Shown piece after piece: positions 1 to 21,512 of a stretch of 64,000 bases of DNA (positions are counted from its first letter, which is position 1; each line of letters begins with the position of its first letter). The notes beneath the pieces were generated by a model. That model had not been told where the DNA came from, made no database searches, and saw nothing but the letters and a program-made list of their open reading frames with translations. The translations under genes and the position numbers were made by a program. This stretch comes from Rhodobacteraceae bacterium HLUCCA12. GTDB lineage: Bacteria > Pseudomonadota > Alphaproteobacteria > Rhodobacterales > Rhodobacteraceae. The stretch is taken from positions 1,760-65,759 of the forward strand of contig LJSV01000012.1 in assembly GCA_001314715.1 (NCBI GenBank), given 5' to 3'.

Positions 1-2
1 TC

Positions 3-233
3 CTTGCGCGCGTCAGTGCCGGTTCCGGCGTAGCCTTCACGCTGCATGATCTGCGCCGCACTTTCATCACCATCGCCGAAAGCCTCGACGTGCCACACTA
101 CGCGCTCAAGCGACTGTTGAACCACCGCTCCAATGGCGACGTGACCGGCGGCTATATCGTCATCAACGCCGAACGCCTGCGCGAGCCTATGGAAAAGGTG
201 GCAGCGCGCATTCTGGAACTTGCCGGGGCGTGA
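3..233 (+). CDS. int: Tyrosine recombinase/integrase, C-terminal fragment (5' part outside window)
   Basis: Frame from nt 3 reads LARVSAGSGVAFTLHDLRRTFITIAESLDVPHYALKRLLNHRSNGDVTGGY...ELAGA*: HxLRR box, LLNH and catalytic Tyr. Not in the ORF track. Confidence 0.88.
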   Translation, partial: LARVSAGSGVAFTLHDLRRTFITIAESLDVPHYALKRLLNHRSNGDVTGGYIVINAERLREPMEKVAARILELAGA

Positions 234-257
234 CCGGTTCGCATTTGGGTTAGCATG

Positions 258-287
258 GGCATCGCACACCATCGTGCGGTGCCCTTT
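258..287 (+). terminator. Terminator-like hairpin after the integrase
   Basis: GGCATCGCAC-ACCATC-GTGCGGTGCC followed only by CTTT (weak U-tract). Confidence 0.3.
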
Positions 288-426
288 GCGTGCCATCGGA
301 CCAGCCTGCACCTGCTCGAACCTCTTAATCGGGTGATCTTGCAGGCTTTGGCGACGCGCGTGCGCGCATGAGATGGCATTGGACTGTCTTTGACCACACA
401 GGAATCGCAACGAACTTTGCTTGACC

Positions 427-445
427 TGACCCATAGCTCGGGTCA
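427..445. promoter_or_regulatory. Palindromic operator-like site
   Basis: TGACCC-N7-GGGTCA perfect inverted repeat overlapping a TTGACC hexamer at 421-426. Confidence 0.35.
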
Positions 446-450
446 TCCAT

Positions 451-580
451 ATAGGGCGAAAGACAAACCCAGAAGCGGGGTCGCATCCGTGGGGCGGTGA
501 AAGTCCGCAGTCGCGACGGGGAAGGCTATGGCCGGTCCGCATGTTGGTCCGCGCTAACCGACCGGGGCGTATGGCCGAAT
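451..580 (+). ncRNA. Candidate structured RNA between int and alpA
   Basis: Stems GTCGC(480-484)/GCGAC(513-517) enclosing GCGG-TGAAAGT-CCGC(494-508); CCGGTC(532-537)/GACCGG(560-565) enclosing GTTGG/CTAAC. Confidence 0.3.
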
Positions 581-604
581 TTCAGGCACTGGCATCAACC
601 CAGT

Positions 605-618
605 CGTGACACGTCACG
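605..618. promoter_or_regulatory. Palindrome upstream of alpA-like gene
   Basis: CGTGAC-AC-GTCACG, about 20 bp before the ATG at 638. Confidence 0.3.
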
Positions 619-637
619 CGCTCCGAAAGTAATCACA

Positions 638-925
638 ATGGAACCACTTCTTACTCAGGGGAGGGGCATAGCCCTCCCCACTGCTATCGGCCCCAAGCAC
701 AGGGACAGGGCGACAAAGGCGCTTCTTACAACCAAAGAAGTCGCAACACTCACTGGGCTCAGCGCTTCGTATTTCGAAAAGGGCCGCCTCTATGGCTACG
801 GCCCGAAATTCATCCGCCTGCAAGCCACCGGCAAAACTGGCAAGATTCTCTATCGCCTTCAAGCGGTAGAAGAATGGCTGGCGGCGCAGGAGCGCGAACC
901 GGAGGTGTTCAGCCATGGTCGATAG
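638..925 (+). CDS. AlpA/excisionase-like helix-turn-helix protein
   Basis: LLTTKEVATLTGLSASYFEKGRLYGYGPKFIRL...KILYRLQAVEEWL matches the AlpA/HTH_17 pattern; lies between integrase and primase; start moved to ATG 638. Confidence 0.8.
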   Translation: MEPLLTQGRGIALPTAIGPKHRDRATKALLTTKEVATLTGLSASYFEKGRLYGYGPKFIRLQATGKTGKILYRLQAVEEWLAAQEREPEVFSHGR

Positions 926-3212
926 AAAGAAGCCCAGCGCTGAACGAGCAGTTGAATACATAGTCTGGCTGAACAACGACGCACCAATGCACCTTGAATC
1001 AATGTCAAGCCAAGGGAACGCAAGGCCAATTGCAAAGCAGTTCACTCCGGCTGACAGCGCGGCAGCTATCGCCTTCGTGGCGATGGCCAATGCCGAAGAT
1101 ACCCAGCGGAACTTATATTTTCTCCCAAACGCTGAGTTTTTGACAGGTGAGCGCAAGAAGGCCAACTTGACCGGGGCGCGGTTCCTCCATGTTGATCTGG
1201 ATTACAAGGACTATCCGGGCACCCCGGAGGAACAATTCAACTTTGTCACAGCATTGCTGGACGATTCGCGAAAACGGCCGAAGGGTGTCCCAAGACCTAC
1301 CGCGATCTGGTTTACCGGCGGTGGGTGTCAGGCAGTTTGGAAGCTTGCCGATCGGGTCGGAATTGAGCAGGCAGAAGCCTTGAATCAGGCCCTCCTGCTC
1401 GCCTTCCAAGGTGGACCGGGCACACACAACGCTGATCGCCTTCTGCGTGTACCTTGGACGATGAACTGGCTGAATGACAAGAAGCGCGCGTCTGGGCGCG
1501 AACCGGCGCTGGCATGGCACTTTGAACCCATGAAGCTAGACCAACCGCCCCGGACGTACTCGATGGATGATTTTCACGTGAAGTTGCCCAAAGAGGAGGC
1601 CAAGCCCGCTGGGAAGCCCTCGGCGGTGGCCATACCTGCGATTGAGATCGAACCGCTGCCGCTGCCGGATCATCTTTATGAAATCCTTCCGTCTGACCCG
1701 GAATGGGCCGAGGCAATCATGTCGGGCAATAACCCACCCGGCAAAAGCTACGCCTCGCGTTCTGAACTGGTGTACGCCGCTACGATTTGGATGCTTTTTC
1801 GAGGAATGCAGCCGGGGCATGTGCTTTCGATACTTATATCCCCGGATGTAGGTATCAGCGCTCATGTGCTGGAAAACCCAAGCCCACTGGCCTACGCGCA
1901 CCGTCAGGTGGTGCGTGCGATGGCTGCAATTGAGGTGCGTACCGGCGGGTGGCCAATACGTGATGATGACGGTAGGCCGATCCGTAACGATCCACAGAAC
2001 GTTCGCTATGCTTTAGCGGTGAAGGGGGTGGACGCCCAGCGAAACACGTTCACTCAGACCGACGAGTTTCGCGGTTATGGATTGGACGGTCGTGACCTTA
2101 ACGACATCGTAGAAATTCTATCCAGCGCGTTCGCGCGCGAGTTGGATTTCAAGGCAACGCCTGCCGTGATCAAGCGTGAGCTATTGGCCATAGCACATGA
2201 GCAGCAACACCATCCGGTCGAAGACTATCTTGACCAGCTTGTCTGGGACGGGACACCGCGGATCGACCGGTGGCTGACTGATTACTGTGGTGCTGACGAC
2301 ACTGAATTGAACGCTGAGTTCGGCAGCAAGCTCGTGATCGCGGGTGTGCGCCGTATCAAGCAGCCGGGTGTGAAATTCGACACAATGCTGGTGCTCGAAG
2401 GTGCGCAAGGCGCAGGCAAATCCCAGATCGCCCAGCGCCTAGCAATCCGCGATGAATGGTTCTGTGGCAGCCTCGACCTCAAGAGCGACGACAAGACAAA
2501 GGCCGAGCTACTGGCGCGCGCGTGGATCGTAGAATGCCAAGAGCTGGACGGGTTGAACAAGACTAACCAGCAGAATCTTAAGCGGTTCCTGAGCACGGCT
2601 ATCGACACGTACCGTCGCGCATACGCGCGCGATGCCAGCGAAAATCGGCGGCACTGTATTATCCTCGGCACCACCAACGAGCGCAGGTATATGCGTGACC
2701 TTACTGGGAACCGTAGGATGTGGCCGGTACTTGTGGGGAAGATCGACTTGGCTCGCTTTAGCACTGACGTGGACCAGCTCTGGGCCGAGGCCGTGGTGCG
2801 GGAGGCGACGGGTGAGTCCATCACATTGTCGCCGCACCTCTGGGCTGCTGCTGCCGAGCTTCAAGGGCAGCGCATGGTCGAGGATGCCTATGCGGACGTC
2901 TTGGAGGATGCGTTTGCCGAAACCAAGGGCCGCGTTTCAATGGAGAGCGTGAAGCTCCTGCTCGGCATCGACACACCGCGTATGTCTACGATGGATACGC
3001 GGCGGATCAATGCGGTCATGGCAGGGCTGGGGTGGGACTATGGCACCCATCGTCTGCACGACCTCGGACGGCGTGAAAAGGCCCAGCGCAAGGGGTTTGC
3101 GCGCGGCAAAGGTGACGAACGGAAGGTTGAGTACATCGCCCGGCGGATCGAGGGGGGAATCGTGGTGATAGACCGCCTCGACGCACAACATGGCAATGAG
3201 CCGCCGTTTTGA
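915..3212 (+). CDS. AEP (RepB-like) primase fused to VapE/VirE-family P-loop ATPase/helicase
   Basis: N-terminal HVDLD, TGGGCQAVW and NADRLLRVP primase motifs; C-terminal GAQGAGKS Walker A, WIVECQEL, GTTN and DLTGNRR typical of VapE. Confidence 0.88.
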   Translation: MVDRKKPSAERAVEYIVWLNNDAPMHLESMSSQGNARPIAKQFTPADSAAAIAFVAMANAEDTQRNLYFLPNAEFLTGERKKANLTGARFLHVDLDYKDYPGTPEEQFNFVTALLDDSRKRPKGVPRPTAIWFTGGGCQAVWKLADRVGIEQAEALNQALLLAFQGGPGTHNADRLLRVPWTMNWLNDKKRASGREPALAWHFEPMKLDQPPRTYSMDDFHVKLPKEEAKPAGKPSAVAIPAIEIEPLPLPDHLYEILPSDPEWAEAIMSGNNPPGKSYASRSELVYAATIWMLFRGMQPGHVLSILISPDVGISAHVLENPSPLAYAHRQVVRAMAAIEVRTGGWPIRDDDGRPIRNDPQNVRYALAVKGVDAQRNTFTQTDEFRGYGLDGRDLNDIVEILSSAFARELDFKATPAVIKRELLAIAHEQQHHPVEDYLDQLVWDGTPRIDRWLTDYCGADDTELNAEFGSKLVIAGVRRIKQPGVKFDTMLVLEGAQGAGKSQIAQRLAIRDEWFCGSLDLKSDDKTKAELLARAWIVECQELDGLNKTNQQNLKRFLSTAIDTYRRAYARDASENRRHCIILGTTNERRYMRDLTGNRRMWPVLVGKIDLARFSTDVDQLWAEAVVREATGESITLSPHLWAAAAELQGQRMVEDAYADVLEDAFAETKGRVSMESVKLLLGIDTPRMSTMDTRRINAVMAGLGWDYGTHRLHDLGRREKAQRKGFARGKGDERKVEYIARRIEGGIVVIDRLDAQHGNEPPF

Positions 3213-3229
3213 GCTGCGGAGCGTACCAT

Positions 3230-3544
3230 GTAACGTAACATAAGGCCCAAACTGGCCTGCACTACCCGGCGGGGCGCTACGGTGACCCGCCTTTTGCTTT
3301 CCCAAACCCTTCTGACCTAAGTTACGGTTACAAGTTACAAAAACCGGCAAATTCTATGCCTGTGGCCCTCCCTTCCGAAGCCGCCCTGGCGCGCACAGGG
3401 GCGCCCTGTTTGGCCGCCAGCCCCCGGCGGGGGCGAAAAATGGCAGTAGGCCGCTAGACGGCCCGCTCCGGGGCTCTGGCAGCCCCCGCTGCCCGGGGCG
3501 CCGGTGGTGTATGTTACCGCACCGGTGCGCGCCGCTCCGGTTAC
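3230..3544. repeat. GTAAC/GTTAC pentamer cluster, putative replication origin
   Basis: GTAAC at 3230 and 3235; GTTAC at 3321, 3327, 3334, 3513 and 3540, directly downstream of the primase-helicase gene. Confidence 0.5.
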
Positions 3545-3991
3545 TCAACGCTGAAGATATACGTCTTCCACAGCCTTCGGTGACCTTTTCCCACGTTTAC
3601 CTTGGGTGATGTGTGCAGGGCCGCTCAGTCCGCAACTTCTAGAATGGCAACCTCGATGAAGCTGTCTCCATCAAACAAGCAGTCAATACTGAAAGTAAGT
3701 TCGAGGTTAATGAATTTTTGGGCGGTGAATTGGGAAACCAACCTTGAACGTCCGGAGGCATAGGTCGTGAAAGAGACATGCATAATGCGAGAAAATTGAA
3801 CAGTCGATGATGAGTTGCCTCGGCGCGCGCTGCAAGCGCGCAAGATTCTGCCGTAGCGGTCCGCCCTATTGGCTGGGTGGCACCAAAAACCCGACCGTTA
3901 TCCGCATCGTCCGGGCTGAACCATACATTTAATGCCCCACCATTTGCCCGCAAGTCACATAGAACTCACATGCGCCCGGTGATCGCCGAGG

Positions 3992-4369
3992 TTATCGGCG
4001 GGTTATCAAGCCGCGCGGTTGCTTGGCCACCGGTACGGTTCCAGCCTTCCATGAGTGCCCGCATTGCAGACAAGTTACATAGACCTTTCGACTTCCCAAA
4101 AAACCGGAAAGCAACCCGACCGTACCAAGCGCAACCCCTCCCGCAACGGCTTTCCCCAATCCAAACCCCATCTTGTTTGCGGTGACAGACGTGCTGCGGC
4201 ACTTTGGGCATCTTGGGCCGTTTCCGCGGCTATTTTTGGCGGCGATAGCGCCCGAACGCGGTTCATCGCAAGTTGGGGCAAAGCGCTCAATATAGGCCTT
4301 GCTACAGCCGCAACGCGTGCACTTTCCGTCCTCGATCAGGTGTTCGCGCTTCGTGGGAATCTCTGCCAT
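3992..4369 (-). CDS. Zinc-ribbon protein with a Gly-rich hydrophobic hairpin between CxxC pairs
   Basis: CTRCGC...C, then CPKC-(GFGLGKAVAGGVALGTVGLLSGFLGS)-CLQC; ATG at 4369 preferred over TTG at 4381. Confidence 0.75.
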   Translation of the reverse strand: MAEIPTKREHLIEDGKCTRCGCSKAYIERFAPTCDEPRSGAIAAKNSRGNGPRCPKCRSTSVTANKMGFGLGKAVAGGVALGTVGLLSGFLGSRKVYVTCLQCGHSWKAGTVPVAKQPRGLITRR

Positions 4370-4413
4370 ACCATTTCTCAACTATCTGAAAATAAAGACC
4401 GACTTTTGCATGA

Positions 4414-4436
4414 ACATTGCAGCAGAAAGGCAATGT
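4414..4436. promoter_or_regulatory. Operator-like inverted repeat between divergent cargo genes
   Basis: ACATTGC-N9-GCAATGT in an AT-rich spacer. Confidence 0.3.
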
Positions 4437-4476
4437 GCCTCAAAATTTATGCAATAATAGTTTCTTACCAACTACT

Positions 4477-4681
4477 ATGCAAGCTGGCCCATCACGACGA
4501 ACGTCATGGAATCCGAAGAGAACAGGAGTGGCGGGGCCTACATCAAGAGCAGCTTGCGTTCGTGGCTGCCCTGAACCGCGCCTATGTCAGCCGCGTCGAG
4601 CGCGGGGTACGCAACCCCACGGTCATTACCGTCGCCAAGCTCGCTGTCGTACTGGGCGCGGAGCCGTATAAGTTATTGTAA
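4477..4681 (+). pseudogene. Frameshifted XRE-family HTH regulator
   Basis: The HTH body QEWRGLHQEQLAFVAALNRAYVSRVERGVRNPTVITVAKLA lacks an in-frame start; ATG 4477 (MQAGPSRRTSWNPKR) is one frame off, with the junction near 4522. Confidence 0.6.
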
Positions 4682-4704
4682 TGGAAGATTTATTTCGAGA
4701 AGGC

Positions 4705-4780
4705 TGGTGCCGCTGAAGGGACTCGAACCCCCGACCCCATCATTACGAATGACGTGCTCTACCAGCTGAGCTACAGCGGC
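4705..4780 (-). tRNA. tRNA-Thr(CGT)
   Basis: GCCGCTG/CAGCGGC acceptor stem, D arm GCTC/GAGC, anticodon loop TT-CGT-AA, GGTTCGAGTCC T arm, encoded CCA; 76 nt. Confidence 0.97.
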
Positions 4781-4796
4781 ACTCTTCTCTCACATG

Positions 4797-4825
4797 GCCC
4801 TACTATGGCCCTATTAGTTCCACAA
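4797..4825 (-). promoter_or_regulatory. Candidate sigma70 promoter for the intact tRNA-Thr
   Basis: TTGTGG-N17-TAGGGC on the minus strand. Confidence 0.35.
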
Positions 4826-4876
4826 GCCCCGATCTAAGTCACTGGCTTCACAAGTCTTTCTTGGGCGGACCCAATA

Positions 4877-4925
4877 ATTACGAATGACGTGCTCTACCAG
4901 CTGAGCTACAGCGGCACTCTTCTCT
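4877..4925 (-). repeat. Perfect 49-bp copy of the tRNA-Thr 5' half plus 10-nt leader
   Basis: Identical to 4742-4790; offset of 135 bp. Confidence 0.92.
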
Positions 4926-5010
4926 GTTCTGGCCGTACCATGGCCTTGAACGTTACTTTTGCCGCATGGAAGCGACACACTAAAGACGCCAATCAGAGGC
5001 GGCTGCGCAA

Positions 5011-5049
5011 CTTGTGAAAGACGCGCTCGGCCAAACGGGCCACGGCGGC
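5011..5049 (-). pseudogene. Decayed third copy of the tRNA-Thr 5' half
   Basis: GCCGCCGTGGCCCGTTTGGCCGAGCGCGTCTTTCACAAG, 26/39 identical without gaps to tRNA nt 1-39; offset of 134 bp from the second copy. Confidence 0.65.
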
Positions 5050-5070
5050 ACTTCAACCGGCGTGGCGCGG

Positions 5071-5099
5071 TCTTTAGCACTGGCAGGAAGGCGTATCCA
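5071..5099 (-). promoter_or_regulatory. Candidate native tRNA promoter upstream of the decayed copy
   Basis: TGGATA-N17-TAAAGA followed by a GC-rich discriminator, about 25 bp past the hemY stop. Confidence 0.4.
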
Positions 5100-5124
5100 G
5101 TCCCAATTTCAACTTTTTTGCCCG

Positions 5125-6711
5125 CTACAGCCCGCGCCTGCGGGTCTCGTCGAGGTCGATCACCTCGGCGTCGGGGATCGGCTGTTGGGCCGGGTCGCGG
5201 GCGGTATCGCCGTTCCTGGCGGTCTCGGTCTCTGCGGCGGGGTCCGGCGTCGAAACCGCGGCCGGATCTTCGACCGGTTCGGCTTTCCCTGCGCCGGCGG
5301 GTTGATCATGCGAGATCCTGTCGCCGCGCGGAGGGCTGGACGCGCCGATGATCAGGGGCAGCATTTCTGTGCCAGCGGCACTTGCGCCCCCGCCGTCTGC
5401 CGGGCTGCGCCAGCTGAGCGTGTCGAACCCCTCGCAGTTGTCGCACACGGCATGCCAGCGCGGATGAATGTGATGACACTTGTCGCATACCCATTGCGGC
5501 CCTCGTGGGGCGATCACGGCGCGCGCCAGCCAGCCGCGAACAACGGCATCATCCGACCCCTCGCCCCGGTCGATCGCGGCCATGATCGTCATCACACGCT
5601 GCGTGGGGTTCGTCTGGTGCAGATCGCCGATGGCGCGCCGCGCCTCGGGGAAATCCTCGGCCGCGATCAGCAATTCGGCGCGGGTCATCCGCGCCTCGTC
5701 ACCCTCGCTCAGCGCAAGAAACTTCTCGAACCGGCGCACACGCTGGGCGGCGGGTTCGTCCGGTTCGATCTCGGCAAAGGCCTGGGCCAGTTCCGGGTGC
5801 GGCTGTAGCTTCCATGCCTTTTTCAGGACTTTCGCGGCGGCGCTGCCTTTGCCGCGCGCAACCAGGGCGCGCGCTGCCATGACCGCGGCCGGCACCAGCG
5901 CCGGTGCGGTCTTGTGGGCCTCGATCGCCAGGTCCTGCGCCATTGTCGTGTTGCCCTCGGCGGCCAGGGCCTCGGCTTGTTGCAATGCCAGAACCGCATC
6001 GCGGCGGACATAGACATCCCTGGGCAGGCGGCCGGTGCGGCGGGTTTCGGTCAGGGTCCGACGGGCGCCCTGCCAGTCGCCGGCCTTGTTCTGAAGTTGC
6101 AGCAGGATGTCCTGCGTCGATCCATGGGCGGGTTGCAGCGCCAGCGCCTTTTCCGCGAGCTTGCGGGCCTTGTCGGCTTCGCCTTGTTCCAGCTTGTGTC
6201 GCATCAACCCCTGAACGCCGACGAAGCGCGCGCGCTCGTCATCCAACAAGCGCTTGTAATACTCTTCCGCCAGCGCGGTGTTGCCGTTCTTGCGTGCGGC
6301 CTGCGCCATCAGCAGATTTGTCAGCGCCTTGTTTTCCAGAAGCTTTTCGGCCTTGCGCGCCTTGGTCAAGGCTTTCTCGCCCTCATCGGCGGCCAGTGCC
6401 AGAAAGCCGTCTGTCAGGGCTTCGAGGCCGCGGCGCTTGCGTGAGGCCTCGAAATAGCGGCTGATCGCGGTTTCGTCACCGTTGATGAAACGCAATGTCG
6501 CGACGACCAGCCCGGCCAGCTTGAGCAAGAGCCACAGGACGGCCAGCAAGACCAGGGCCGCGATCGCGGCCTGAACCGGACCCAGCGTGAATTCCGTGCC
6601 GGCCAGAGCGATGCGGATCCCCGCTTCAGTGTCCAGCAGCGCATCTGCCCCCAGCGTCAGGCCGGCCACGACCAGAAGGAACACCGCGATCTTGAGTATG
6701 GTCCAGAGCAT
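5125..6711 (-). CDS. hemY: HemY-family membrane TPR protein
   Basis: Two N-terminal TM segments, Ala-rich TPR-like helices, C-terminal CDKC...CDNC; adjacent to COG4223 and hemD. Confidence 0.85.
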   Translation of the reverse strand: MLWTILKIAVFLLVVAGLTLGADALLDTEAGIRIALAGTEFTLGPVQAAIAALVLLAVLWLLLKLAGLVVATLRFINGDETAISRYFEASRKRRGLEALTDGFLALAADEGEKALTKARKAEKLLENKALTNLLMAQAARKNGNTALAEEYYKRLLDDERARFVGVQGLMRHKLEQGEADKARKLAEKALALQPAHGSTQDILLQLQNKAGDWQGARRTLTETRRTGRLPRDVYVRRDAVLALQQAEALAAEGNTTMAQDLAIEAHKTAPALVPAAVMAARALVARGKGSAAAKVLKKAWKLQPHPELAQAFAEIEPDEPAAQRVRRFEKFLALSEGDEARMTRAELLIAAEDFPEARRAIGDLHQTNPTQRVMTIMAAIDRGEGSDDAVVRGWLARAVIAPRGPQWVCDKCHHIHPRWHAVCDNCEGFDTLSWRSPADGGGASAAGTEMLPLIIGASSPPRGDRISHDQPAGAGKAEPVEDPAAVSTPDPAAETETARNGDTARDPAQQPIPDAEVIDLDETRRRGL

Positions 6712-21190: not shown

Positions 21191-21267
21191 GCGGTTGTAG
21201 CTCAGTCGGTTAGAGTACCGGCCTGTCACGCCGGGGGTCGCGGGTTCGAGCCCCGTCAACCGCGCCA
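21191..21267 (+). tRNA. tRNA-Asp(GTC) copy 1
   Basis: 77-nt cloverleaf, loop CT-GTC-AC, encoded CCA. Confidence 0.97.
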
Positions 21268-21435: not shown

Positions 21436-21512
21436 GCGGTTGTAGCTCAGTCGGTTAGAGTACCGGCCTGTCACGCCGGGGGTCGCGGGTTCGAGCCCCG
21501 TCAACCGCGCCA
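21436..21512 (+). tRNA. tRNA-Asp(GTC) copy 2
   Basis: Identical to copy 1. Confidence 0.97.

What the first reader, a model, noticed from the sequence alone, without database searches (positions are those of the whole stretch)
1..4704. Minimal int-alpA-primase island resembling a PICMI-type phage satellite in an alphaproteobacterium
Seen: integrase, AlpA-like HTH and primase-helicase are co-oriented, followed by an ori-like region and only two small cargo genes, ending at the tRNA CCA with no terminator; no packaging or virion genes. Known: int + alpA + primase with few cargo genes defines PICMI minimalist satellites (described in Vibrionaceae); P4-like and PICI elements are larger. Inference: a ~6-kb helper-dependent or GTA-transferred replicon. 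The integrase points toward the tRNA from the distal end, so the true att pair is unresolved.
Basis: partly seen in the sequence, partly recalled or inferred. Interest (0 to 1): 0.7.

Follow-up and report, generated by a model that had tools for sequence, protein, structure and literature searches.

The report
tRNA-splitting island with its own tRNA
This is the right-hand part of a roughly 14-kb mobile island, common in alphaproteobacteria, that inserts into the anticodon loop of the threonine tRNA gene, breaks it, carries its own replacement tRNA, and in relatives delivers anti-phage defence genes; it is not a minimal 6-kb PICMI satellite.

Summary
The gene trio is real. The window holds an integrase C-terminus (3-233), an excisionase/AlpA-like HTH (638-925) and a RepB'-type primase fused to a VapE/PriRep helicase (915-3212). 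A conserved non-coding block follows (3213-3343).

The boundaries and the "minimal PICMI" reading are wrong. The element does not stop at the tRNA CCA. It includes tRNA-Thr(CGT) (4705-4780) and a 97-nt attachment arm, and ends at a 7-bp core TTACGAA (4878-4884), which is the anticodon loop. A displaced 5' part of the host tRNA follows (4878-4915).

The same layout occurs in 23 related genomes. In 11 of them the host tRNA 3' half lies 3-8 kb left of int. Rejoining the halves restores a valid tRNA, giving elements of 9.5-14 kb. Their left arms carry restriction-modification, Dnd and similar defence genes.

For this organism, contigs at matching depth link a 4.9-kb left arm and a 2.3-kb IS21 element to int. 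That gives about 13.8 kb.

The integration logic matches "tRNA-dependent lysogeny" of phages, here in a capsid-less element resembling a satellite. The route of transfer is unknown. PICMI membership fails on integration site, size and host.

The parts
1..233 (+). 3' end of the tyrosine integrase gene (last 76 codons; frame from base 3). It contains the HDLRRT and GGY catalytic motifs. The full gene is 386 aa and starts 927 nt left of the window.
   Evidence: L001 874-2034 is identical to the window over the overlap. Pfam Arm-DNA-bind_3 and Phage_integrase. phrog_1 integrase at E 2e-53.
234..637 (.). int-alpA spacer. It holds a conserved block of about 45 nt at 458-509, function unknown.
   Evidence: blastn against related loci. 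No Rfam hit. No fold signal, z = 0.07.
638..925 (+). Excisionase/AlpA-like winged-HTH protein of 95 aa. Its stop overlaps the primase start by 11 nt.
   Evidence: HTH_17 at E 3e-4 and DUF1233 putative excisionase. phrog_66 at 2.5e-5. A profile of 14 orthologues hits RdfS 8dgl at E 7e-4.
915..3212 (+). Replication protein of 765 aa. The N-terminal domain is a RepB'-type (AEP) primase. The C-terminal domain is a VapE/D5-type self-loading helicase of the PriRep type.
   Evidence: PF05272 at E 6e-67. PDB 7pds at E 7.5e-52 by sequence. AF2 pLDDT is about 85-90 for residues 1-225. Foldseek gives 3h20 at E 2e-7, 3h25 with TMt 0.65 and 6zp9 with TMt 0.70.
3213..3343 (.). Conserved non-coding block. 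It reads GTAACGTAAC, two G+C hairpins (the second followed by TTTT, so a likely terminator), then GTTACGGTTACAAGTTAC. It is a candidate origin or primase recognition site.
   Evidence: 85-92% nt identity in 13 Rhodobacterales loci, with 58 invariant columns. The function is inferred.
3344..4432 (.). Variable hot spot 2. No nucleotide similarity to related loci. It contains one credible gene.
   Evidence: No blastn hits between 3395 and 4542 except one weak match.
3992..4381 (-). Small zinc-ribbon protein (125-129 aa) with CxxC pairs flanking a glycine-rich hydrophobic segment. Function unknown.
   Evidence: phrog_2546 at E 1.5e-20 and phrog_24502 'zinc-finger domain protein'. Called as a gene in two assemblies. 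No PADLOC hit.
4433..4681 (+). XRE-family HTH regulator of 82 aa. It is conserved next to the tRNA in the Rhodobacterales versions.
   Evidence: HTH_3 at E 3e-9. 58-64% identical orthologues at the same position in 9 loci. The best PADLOC match is the R-M 'control protein' at E 2.6e-12.
4705..4780 (-). Element-borne complete tRNA-Thr(CGT), CCA encoded.
   Evidence: ARAGORN. Rfam tRNA at 67 bits. In relatives it differs from the reconstructed host tRNA by up to 15 nt.
4781..4877 (.). attR arm of the element. It has two CCTA(C/T)TA motifs at 4799-4805 and 4810-4816, which are candidate arm-type Int sites, and the conserved core-proximal sequence GGCGGACCC.
   Evidence: The motifs sit at exactly -79 and -68 from the core in the window. 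Across the 11 fully bounded loci, 7 have both sites and 4 have one. Matching motifs lie at +151/+181 (or +162) on the left arm.
4878..4884 (.). 7-bp crossover core TTACGAA, which is the anticodon loop UUCGUAA of tRNA-Thr(CGU). This is the right border of the element.
   Evidence: Junction alignment of 11 loci plus the window. L008 and L041 narrow the shared sequence to these 7 bp.
4878..4915 (-). Displaced 5' part (positions 1-38) of the host tRNA-Thr gene, still next to its native upstream region and hemY.
   Evidence: 78-nt direct repeat 4733-4810 / 4868-4945, 90% identical with 49 nt exact. The same remnant lies 134-137 nt from the full tRNA in the 11 loci with mapped cores, and about that distance in the other 12.

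Best explanation
Window 1-4884 is the right-hand 4.9 kb of a site-specific integrative element of about 13.8 kb. About 11.5 kb is the element itself and 2.3 kb is an IS21-family insertion. The element belongs to a family spread across Rhodobacterales, Hyphomicrobiales and Hyphomonadaceae-type genomes.

Shown:
- A P4-type tyrosine integrase gene sits in an element bounded by the two halves of the host tRNA-Thr(CGU) gene.
- The halves share only the 7-bp anticodon loop TTACGAA with the element ends, so integration splits the tRNA gene and does not rebuild it.
- The element carries a complete tRNA-Thr(CGU), 98 bp inside its right end and in the same orientation as the host gene.
- Repeated CCTA(C/T)TA motifs lie at fixed offsets on both arms.

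Inferred:
- The integrase exchanges strands across the anticodon loop, using the anticodon stem as core sites and the CCTA(C/T)TA motifs as arm sites.
- The element tRNA compensates for the broken host gene, probably read from the retained host promoter.
- The AlpA/RdfS-like protein directs excision, which would restore the host tRNA.
- The RepB'-primase/VapE-helicase replicates the circle from the conserved block just downstream of its gene.
- The XRE protein regulates the element.
- Because it has no packaging, capsid or conjugation genes, the element depends on a helper for transfer. A phage is most likely, as for satellites.

Cargo: relatives carry restriction-modification, Dnd, GmrSD or reverse-transcriptase modules between attL and int, and small variable genes between the origin and the XRE gene. 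For this organism the 4.9-kb left-arm cargo could not be read.
For: - Layout. int > alpA > primase > variable region < tRNA-Thr(CGT), usually followed by hemY, occurs in 23 related loci.
- 5' remnant. A 5' tRNA part lies 134-137 nt right of the full tRNA where the cores were mapped, and about that in the rest; it is present in all 23 loci and in the window.
- 3' half. It lies 3.1-7.7 kb left of int in 11 loci.
- Junctions. The alignment gives the 7-bp core and conserved arms.
- Rejoining. Joining the displaced halves gives a valid tRNA-Thr(CGT) in 11 of 11 loci. Host and element tRNAs differ by 0-15 nt.
- Arm motifs sit at fixed offsets.
- Composition. G+C drops exactly between the two cores in L010 and in the window.
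- Cargo. The arm between attL and int carries DNA-modification, restriction or other defence genes in all 11 arms scanned. Dnd, type I, type II and type III-like restriction-modification, GmrSD, Abi and RT are seen in 10; L042 has a thymidine-hypermodification set.
- This organism, run X1. A 4,966-nt contig at depth 143 has the tRNA 3' half plus core at one end, followed by the family's left-arm sequence. Its other end is the first 30 nt of the IS21 left end. Orientation is consistent throughout. Depths are 150 for the island, 127-134 for the flanks and 395 for the IS.
- IS21. L001 1-141 is the IS21 right end.
- Mobility. Island cores are 87-92% identical between genera and families whose flanks do not align.
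- Super-integration. A second island sits in an island-borne tRNA in L009 and L022.
- Protein functions.
- Mechanism precedent: PMC10865867.
Against: - No excised circle, empty site or expression data could be obtained. Only assembled contigs were available, and no RNA run was found.
- The link between the left arm and this genome rests on k-mer overlaps and equal depth in one metagenome, not on a continuous read.
- In 12 relatives no 3' half was found within the 7-8 kb fetched. There the element may be longer, eroded or rearranged.
- The IS21 insertion may have damaged function here.
- No sigma-70-like promoter was detected for the element tRNA or anything else in 1-5200, so the read-through idea is untested.
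- No close relative exists in IMG/VR or in phage records. Nothing positive therefore supports packaging by a phage.
Confidence: 0.8

Rival explanations
1. First reader's model. A minimal element of about 6 kb (int, alpA, primase, two small genes), a PICMI-type phage satellite whose right border is the tRNA 3' end.
For: The int + AlpA-like + primase trio is co-localised and co-oriented. The primase matches DUF5906, though below Pfam's cutoff in the window protein (24.4 against 27.6 bits). A variable hot spot follows the primase, as in PICMI (PMC10803314). There are no virion genes.
Against: - No att sequence lies within 873 nt upstream of int.
- The partner of the right-hand core lies several kb upstream of int in 11 relatives and in this organism.
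- The tRNA and a 97-nt arm lie inside the element.
- The PICMI hallmarks fail: integration at fis, Vibrionaceae host and ~6.7-kb size.
Confidence: 0.04
2. The same element as in the best explanation, but moved by conjugation. It would be an integrative mobilizable element that borrows the transfer machinery of an ICE or plasmid and is not packaged by a phage.
For: The primase domain is of the RepB' type, known from the mobilizable plasmid RSF1010. No terminase, cos/pac or capsid-related gene occurs in any locus. No relative is found among viral contigs.
Against: - No relaxase or recognisable oriT occurs in any locus.
- No full-length relative of the replication protein is found on 72,556 plasmids.
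- The closest solved helicase is the SaPI PriRep1 of a phage satellite.
- int + AlpA + primase-helicase is the usual satellite core (PMC10803314, PMC9618062).
Confidence: 0.2
3. A decayed prophage or a fixed, no longer mobile genomic island, whose tRNA pieces are leftovers of old events.
For: An IS21 element has inserted in the left arm. No excision data exist. The 732 nt between the IS and int have no convincing gene.
Against: - The same compact gene set, spacing (134-137 nt) and arm motifs are kept across three orders.
- No phage structural gene occurs in any of 23 loci.
- int, alpA and the primase gene are intact and under visible conservation.
- Cores are far more alike than flanks between genera.
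- Super-integration events are seen.
Confidence: 0.1

Closest known systems
tRNA-dependent lysogeny of actinobacteriophages (Guerrero-Bustamante and Hatfull 2024, PMC10865867). Similar reports: vTRX32-1-like Rhizobium phages (PMC8631192) and Sinorhizobium phage-related sequences (PMC11476347).
   Same: A tyrosine integrase with arm-type sites. The attB lies in a tRNA gene. The common core is only 7-10 bp, so the tRNA is not rebuilt. The element carries a full tRNA of the same anticodon that can replace it.
   Different: [quoted passage not shown] Here the carrier is a 10-14-kb element without capsid genes in Alphaproteobacteria. The core is exactly the anticodon loop. The replacement tRNA is fixed 98 bp from the core, behind the host promoter. 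The island tRNA keeps the target sequence and is itself re-used as a landing site.
PICMI (phage-inducible chromosomal minimalist islands, Vibrionaceae; PMC10803314)
   Same: An int - alpA - primase core, a variable hot spot after the primase, no capsid-remodelling or packaging genes, and a link to phage defence.
   Different: PICMI integrates next to fis, averages 6.7 kb, is reported as complete only in Vibrionaceae and uses a DUF3987/DUF5906 primase. This element integrates in tRNA-Thr, is 9.5-14 kb, has a RepB'-primase/VapE protein, carries a tRNA and has a large second cargo site upstream of int.
PICI/SaPI replication module (PriRep1, PDB 7pds) and P4-like satellites
   Same: A primase fused to a self-loading VapE/D5-type helicase with an adjacent origin. 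A P4-type integrase with an arm-binding domain. An AlpA-type regulator. Defence cargo in hot spots.
   Different: No terS, capsid-size or Psu/Sid/Delta-type genes are present. The integration strategy differs, because those elements rebuild their target.
VEIMEs, virion-encapsidated integrative mobile elements of marine bacteria (PMC9618062)
   Same: Small integrative elements of marine Alphaproteobacteria and others, with tyrosine integrase, primase/helicase, AlpA and restriction-modification genes.
   Different: VEIMEs are defined by being found in virus particles. No such evidence exists for this family, and their sequences could not be compared here.

Membership tests
PICMI | Co-localised int, alpA (PF05930/PF12728) and primase (DUF3987/DUF5906) | tested here: inconclusive
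   int and the primase-helicase are clear. The HTH matches PF12728 only below its gathering score (21.4 against 27 bits). The primase matches DUF5906 below the cutoff in the window protein (24.4 against 27.6), and its main domain is VapE.
PICMI | Integration next to the fis gene, called the hallmark in PMC10803314 | tested here: not met
   Integration is in the anticodon loop of tRNA-Thr(CGT), next to hemY.
PICMI | Small size (about 6-7 kb) with few genes | tested here: not met
   9.5-14 kb in 11 bounded relatives. About 13.8 kb here including the IS21 element.
PICMI | Induction by a virulent helper phage and packaging as concatemers | not testable with these tools
   Only assembled contigs of public runs were available. 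Island depth equals flank depth in run X1.
tRNA-dependent integration (as in tRNA-dependent lysogeny) | Tyrosine integrase with attB inside a tRNA gene | tested here: met
tRNA-dependent integration (as in tRNA-dependent lysogeny) | Short common core, so that no functional tRNA is formed at either junction | tested here: met
   The core is the 7-bp TTACGAA. ARAGORN finds no tRNA at the junctions and finds one only after the halves are rejoined.
tRNA-dependent integration (as in tRNA-dependent lysogeny) | [quoted passage not shown] | tested here: met
   tRNA-Thr(CGT) at 4705-4780 and in the 23 related loci that have this layout. It is distinct from the host copy in L008, L041, L046 and L042.
tRNA-dependent integration (as in tRNA-dependent lysogeny) | The element tRNA is required for survival of integrants | not testable with these tools
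   This needs genetics. Whether the host has another tRNA-Thr(CGU) gene is unknown, since only 64 kb was seen.
P4-like satellites / PICI | Capsid-size redirection or packaging genes (sid/psu/delta; terS, ppi and the like) | tested here: not met
   None appeared in Pfam or PHROG scans of the window genes or of about 50 cargo proteins from 11 relatives. The 4.9-kb left arm of this organism was not readable.
Phage satellite (general) | Mobilised in particles of a helper phage | not tested
   No relative was found in IMG/VR or phage records. Absence there is not evidence of absence.

The most novel reading that the evidence does not exclude
A widespread, unnamed family of helper-dependent, satellite-like islands that carry defence genes in Alphaproteobacteria. 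They have adopted the tRNA-splitting, tRNA-replacing strategy so far demonstrated experimentally only for complete phages. They park their own tRNA behind the host promoter. Because that tRNA keeps the target sequence, each island becomes the landing pad for the next, building tandem defence arrays at a single tRNA gene.
Probability: 0.35. Interest if true: 0.7.

Novelty: new variant of a known kind. Interest (0 to 1): 0.55.

Why it matters
- Island finders. The intact tRNA lies inside the element and the true right border is a 5' fragment.
- Reach of the mechanism. The family shows that tRNA-dependent integration is not confined to full phages. It serves a compact vehicle for restriction-modification and other defence systems that crosses family and order boundaries in marine and soil alphaproteobacteria.
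- Testable predictions. The fixed 7-bp core and the mapped arm sites give a well-defined integration module for tRNA-Thr(CGU). They suggest experiments on excision, on dependence on the element tRNA, on helper identity and on serial integration.

Tried and rejected
- Direct search for a tRNA fragment in the 873 nt upstream of int found nothing. The fragment lies much further left.
- The first metagenome scan, with a unique 30-mer from the left arm, returned nothing, although the sequence exists in a JGI contig. The second scan identified the IS21 repeat but no contig across it.
Window and genome-collection loci had to be used instead.
- The left-arm cargo of this organism could not be read. 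Its contig matches neither the L007 nor the L006 cargo. Left-flank genes are not syntenic among relatives, so no protein handle was available.
- No RNA runs were found, so tRNA read-through is untested. No promoter-like sites were detected.
- Assembled de Bruijn contigs cannot tell a restored attB from the island tRNA, so there is no evidence on excision.
- The origin block and the int-alpA spacer give no significant single-strand fold and no Rfam match.
- Iterons of the classical long type were not found. Only GTAAC/GTTAC pentamers are present.
- A GTA as vehicle was considered and rejected on capacity, from general knowledge of RcGTA and not from a test here.
Full report
**What is in the window**

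ORF listing, tRNA search and composition show a low-G+C block (53-60%) from base 1 to about 4950. The core genome to its right has 65-72% G+C and carries hemY, a mitofilin-like gene, hemD and tsaD.

The window starts inside an integrase gene. An ENA contig identical to the window over 13.2 kb (L001; window base 1 = L001 base 1802) gives the whole 386-aa protein, with an arm-DNA-binding domain and a tyrosine recombinase domain.

Downstream, on the same strand, come three features.
- A 95-aa winged-HTH protein at 638-925. It matches HTH_17 and a putative excisionase family, phrog_66 'excisionase and transcriptional regulator', and by profile the recombination directionality factor RdfS.
- A 765-aa replication protein at 915-3212, overlapping the HTH gene by 11 nt. 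Its C-terminal part is a VapE domain (E 6e-67), related to the solved PriRep1 helicase of a staphylococcal island (7pds, E 7.5e-52). The N-terminal 225 residues model confidently and match the RepB' primase of RSF1010 and AEP PrimPol domains.
- So 'integrase, AlpA-like HTH and primase-helicase, co-oriented' is confirmed.

**The 'ori-like' region**

The 130-140 nt after the primase stop (3200-3343) are 85-92% identical in 13 Rhodobacterales relatives. That is more conserved than the protein-coding DNA beside them.

The block reads GTAACGTAAC, then two G+C hairpins, the second followed by TTTT, then GTTACGGTTACAAGTTAC. This layout would suit a terminator plus an origin or primase recognition site. 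That function is inferred. The block gives no significant single-strand fold and no Rfam match.

From 3344 to about 4540 there is no similarity to any relative, so this is a variable hot spot. It contains one credible gene, a zinc-ribbon protein at 3992-4381 on the minus strand.

The XRE-type HTH gene at 4433-4681 is conserved next to the tRNA in the Rhodobacterales loci. It resembles restriction-modification controller proteins. It is therefore core, not cargo.

**The borders**

The repeat finder showed a 78-nt direct repeat, 4733-4810 against 4868-4945, with 49 nt exact. A second copy of tRNA positions 1-38 therefore lies to the right of the tRNA.

I fetched 79 loci encoding relatives of the replication protein from one genome per species.
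- In 23 of them the order is the same: int, alpA, primase, variable stretch, tRNA-Thr(CGT) on the opposite strand, usually followed by hemY.
- The hosts include Roseovarius, Ruegeria, Cognatishimia, Rhodobacter, Martelella, Devosia, Shinella, Mesorhizobium, Hoeflea, Cohaesibacter and Robiginitomaculum.
- Every one of the 23 has the extra 5' tRNA part. It lies 134-137 nt from the full tRNA in the 11 loci whose cores were mapped, and about that distance in the others.
- In 11 of them a 46-54-nt copy of the tRNA 3' half lies 3.1-7.7 kb to the left of int.

Aligning the junctions gives two forms.
- Left: host 3' half ...CCCCATCA | TTACGAA | TTGTTT...
- Right: ...GGCGGACCCGCTA(A/C) | TTACGAA | (T/G)GACGTGCTC... 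host 5' part.

L008 and L041 narrow the shared sequence to the 7 bp TTACGAA, which is the anticodon loop UUCGUAA.

Further support for the boundaries:
- Joining the two displaced parts in silico gives a tRNA-Thr(CGT) that ARAGORN accepts in 11 of 11 loci.
- This host tRNA differs from the complete internal tRNA by 0-15 nt, with compensatory stem changes. The complete copy therefore belongs to the element.
- G+C falls exactly between the two cores.
- The motif CCTA(C/T)TA lies at +151 and +181 (or +162) from the left core and at -79 and -68 from the right core across orders. In the window it is at 4799 and 4810, exactly -79 and -68 from the core at 4878. These are good candidates for arm-type sites of an integrase that has an arm-binding domain.

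The element thus ends at 4878-4884 and contains the tRNA. In relatives it measures 9.5-14 kb.

**The left end in this organism**

Three assemblies break 770-870 nt upstream of int. The staggered ends predicted a repeat boundary near L001 base 141. A scan confirmed it: L001 1-141 is the right end of a 2,304-bp IS21-family element with istA and istB, found at other sites in related metagenomes.

In the public run that holds the window almost completely (X1), I laid contigs on the tRNA and on the IS left end.
- One 4,966-nt contig at depth 143 has, at one end, the last 30 nt of the tRNA 3' half including the core. It continues with TGTTTTTCGGTTCGCTGGACCGAGTTGCAC, the family's left-end sequence.
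- The same contig aligns to the attL arm of L006, including the arm-motif region.
- Its other end is the first 30 nt of the IS21 left end. Orientation is consistent throughout.
- Depths agree: 150 for the island, 127-134 for the flanks and 395 for the IS.
- A 5,082-nt contig at depth 134 ends in the 3' half and is presumably the host left flank.

Core to core, this gives about 4,914 + 2,304 + 6,537 = 13.8 kb, or about 11.5 kb without the IS. The link rests on k-mer overlaps and depth, not on a single read. The 4.6 kb of cargo could not be read. It resembles neither the L006 nor the L007 cargo.

**Cargo in relatives**

I scanned the arm between attL and int in 11 loci.
- L010: Dnd-type genes.
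- L006 and L046: C5 methylase with SNF2 helicase and Vsr, with an additional HNH nuclease in L046.
- L007: type I restriction-modification plus an Abi-like gene.
- L020: type III-like restriction-modification plus a reverse transcriptase.
- L040: two D12 methylases plus a NOV_C protein.
- L045: BglII-type restriction-modification.
- L051 and L041: NaeI restriction-modification plus GmrSD.
- L008: an N6/N4 methylase.
- L042: a thymidine-hypermodification set.

No capsid, terminase, relaxase or secretion gene was seen anywhere.

**Mobility**

- Island cores are 87-92% identical between Rhodobacter ruber and Fuscibacter oryzae. They are also 87-92% identical among a Mesorhizobium MAG, Shinella and Devosia. 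The flanks in these pairs do not align, or align at less than 80%.
- In L009 an island-borne tRNA has itself been split by a second island. L022 has two successive 5' remnants. The replacement tRNA therefore keeps the target sequence and can be re-used.
- I found no direct evidence of excision or packaging. Island depth equals flank depth. Contigs cannot distinguish a restored attB. No RNA runs exist.
- The replication protein has no full-length relative in IMG/VR, in 50,697 phage records or in 72,556 plasmids.

**Comparison with known systems**

The integration logic has three parts: a short core, no rebuilding of the tRNA, and an element-borne tRNA of the same anticodon. Together they are what Guerrero-Bustamante and Hatfull named tRNA-dependent lysogeny in actinobacteriophages (PMC10865867). 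Similar cases are noted for Rhizobium phages and Sinorhizobium phage-related sequences (PMC8631192, PMC11476347). The Hatfull paper does not mention satellites or genomic islands.

The gene core resembles satellites.
- PICMI is defined by int, alpA and prim. Its authors call integration at fis its hallmark, find complete members only in Vibrionaceae and report about 6.7 kb (PMC10803314). Those features fail here.
- The PriRep-type protein and the P4-type integrase recall PICIs and P4-like elements, but their packaging and capsid genes are absent.
- The marine VEIMEs (PMC9618062) may overlap with this family. That could not be tested.

**Verdict**

The best reading is a new variant of known kinds. 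It is a capsid-less island that carries defence genes and uses tRNA-splitting, tRNA-replacing integration at the anticodon loop of tRNA-Thr(CGU). It is widespread in Alphaproteobacteria, and its helper is unknown.

Noticed in passing
L001 1-141 (1,661-1,801 nt left of window base 1); L163 10447-12750: A 2,304-bp IS21-family element (istA transposase, istB helper) is inserted in the island's left arm, 732 nt upstream of int. It is present in about three copies per genome by depth, and it explains why three assemblies break there.
   Followed up: yes
L009 14553-14760; L022 13376-13722: An island-borne tRNA-Thr has itself been used as the attachment site. In L009 its 3' half is followed by a second island's left arm. 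In L022 two successive 5' remnants follow the full tRNA. This implies tandem build-up of islands at one tRNA.
   Followed up: partly
window 4915-4945 against 4781-4810: The native upstream region of the displaced 5' tRNA part resembles the island's own tRNA upstream region for about 30 nt, including a degenerate copy of the arm motif. L007 shows the same thing. It may be gene conversion between the repeats or the scar of an earlier island.
   Followed up: partly
window 458-509: A block of about 45 nt in the int-alpA spacer is conserved in several Rhodobacterales loci. It has no Rfam match and no significant fold, and its function is unknown.
   Followed up: partly
L042 2182-6725: The left-arm cargo of the Hongsoonwoonella island encodes a 5-hmdU DNA kinase, a dCTP-deaminase-like protein and an M78 peptidase/XRE pair. 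This is a thymidine-hypermodification set of the kind usually seen in phages.
   Followed up: no
L021 (NZ_JAIVFQ010000131.1, labelled Nostoc favosum): A 14-kb, low-coverage contig in a cyanobacterial assembly carries this alphaproteobacterial island (int 74%, primase 59% identical). It probably comes from an associated bacterium and not from Nostoc.
   Followed up: no
window 4433-4681: The XRE regulator next to the tRNA is most similar to the controller (C) proteins of restriction-modification systems. In the circular form its gene would lie only about 0.5 kb from the defence-cargo arm.
   Followed up: no
window 21191-21267 and 21436-21512: Two tRNA-Asp(GTC) genes lie in tandem, 245 nt apart start to start, on the plus strand.
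   Followed up: no
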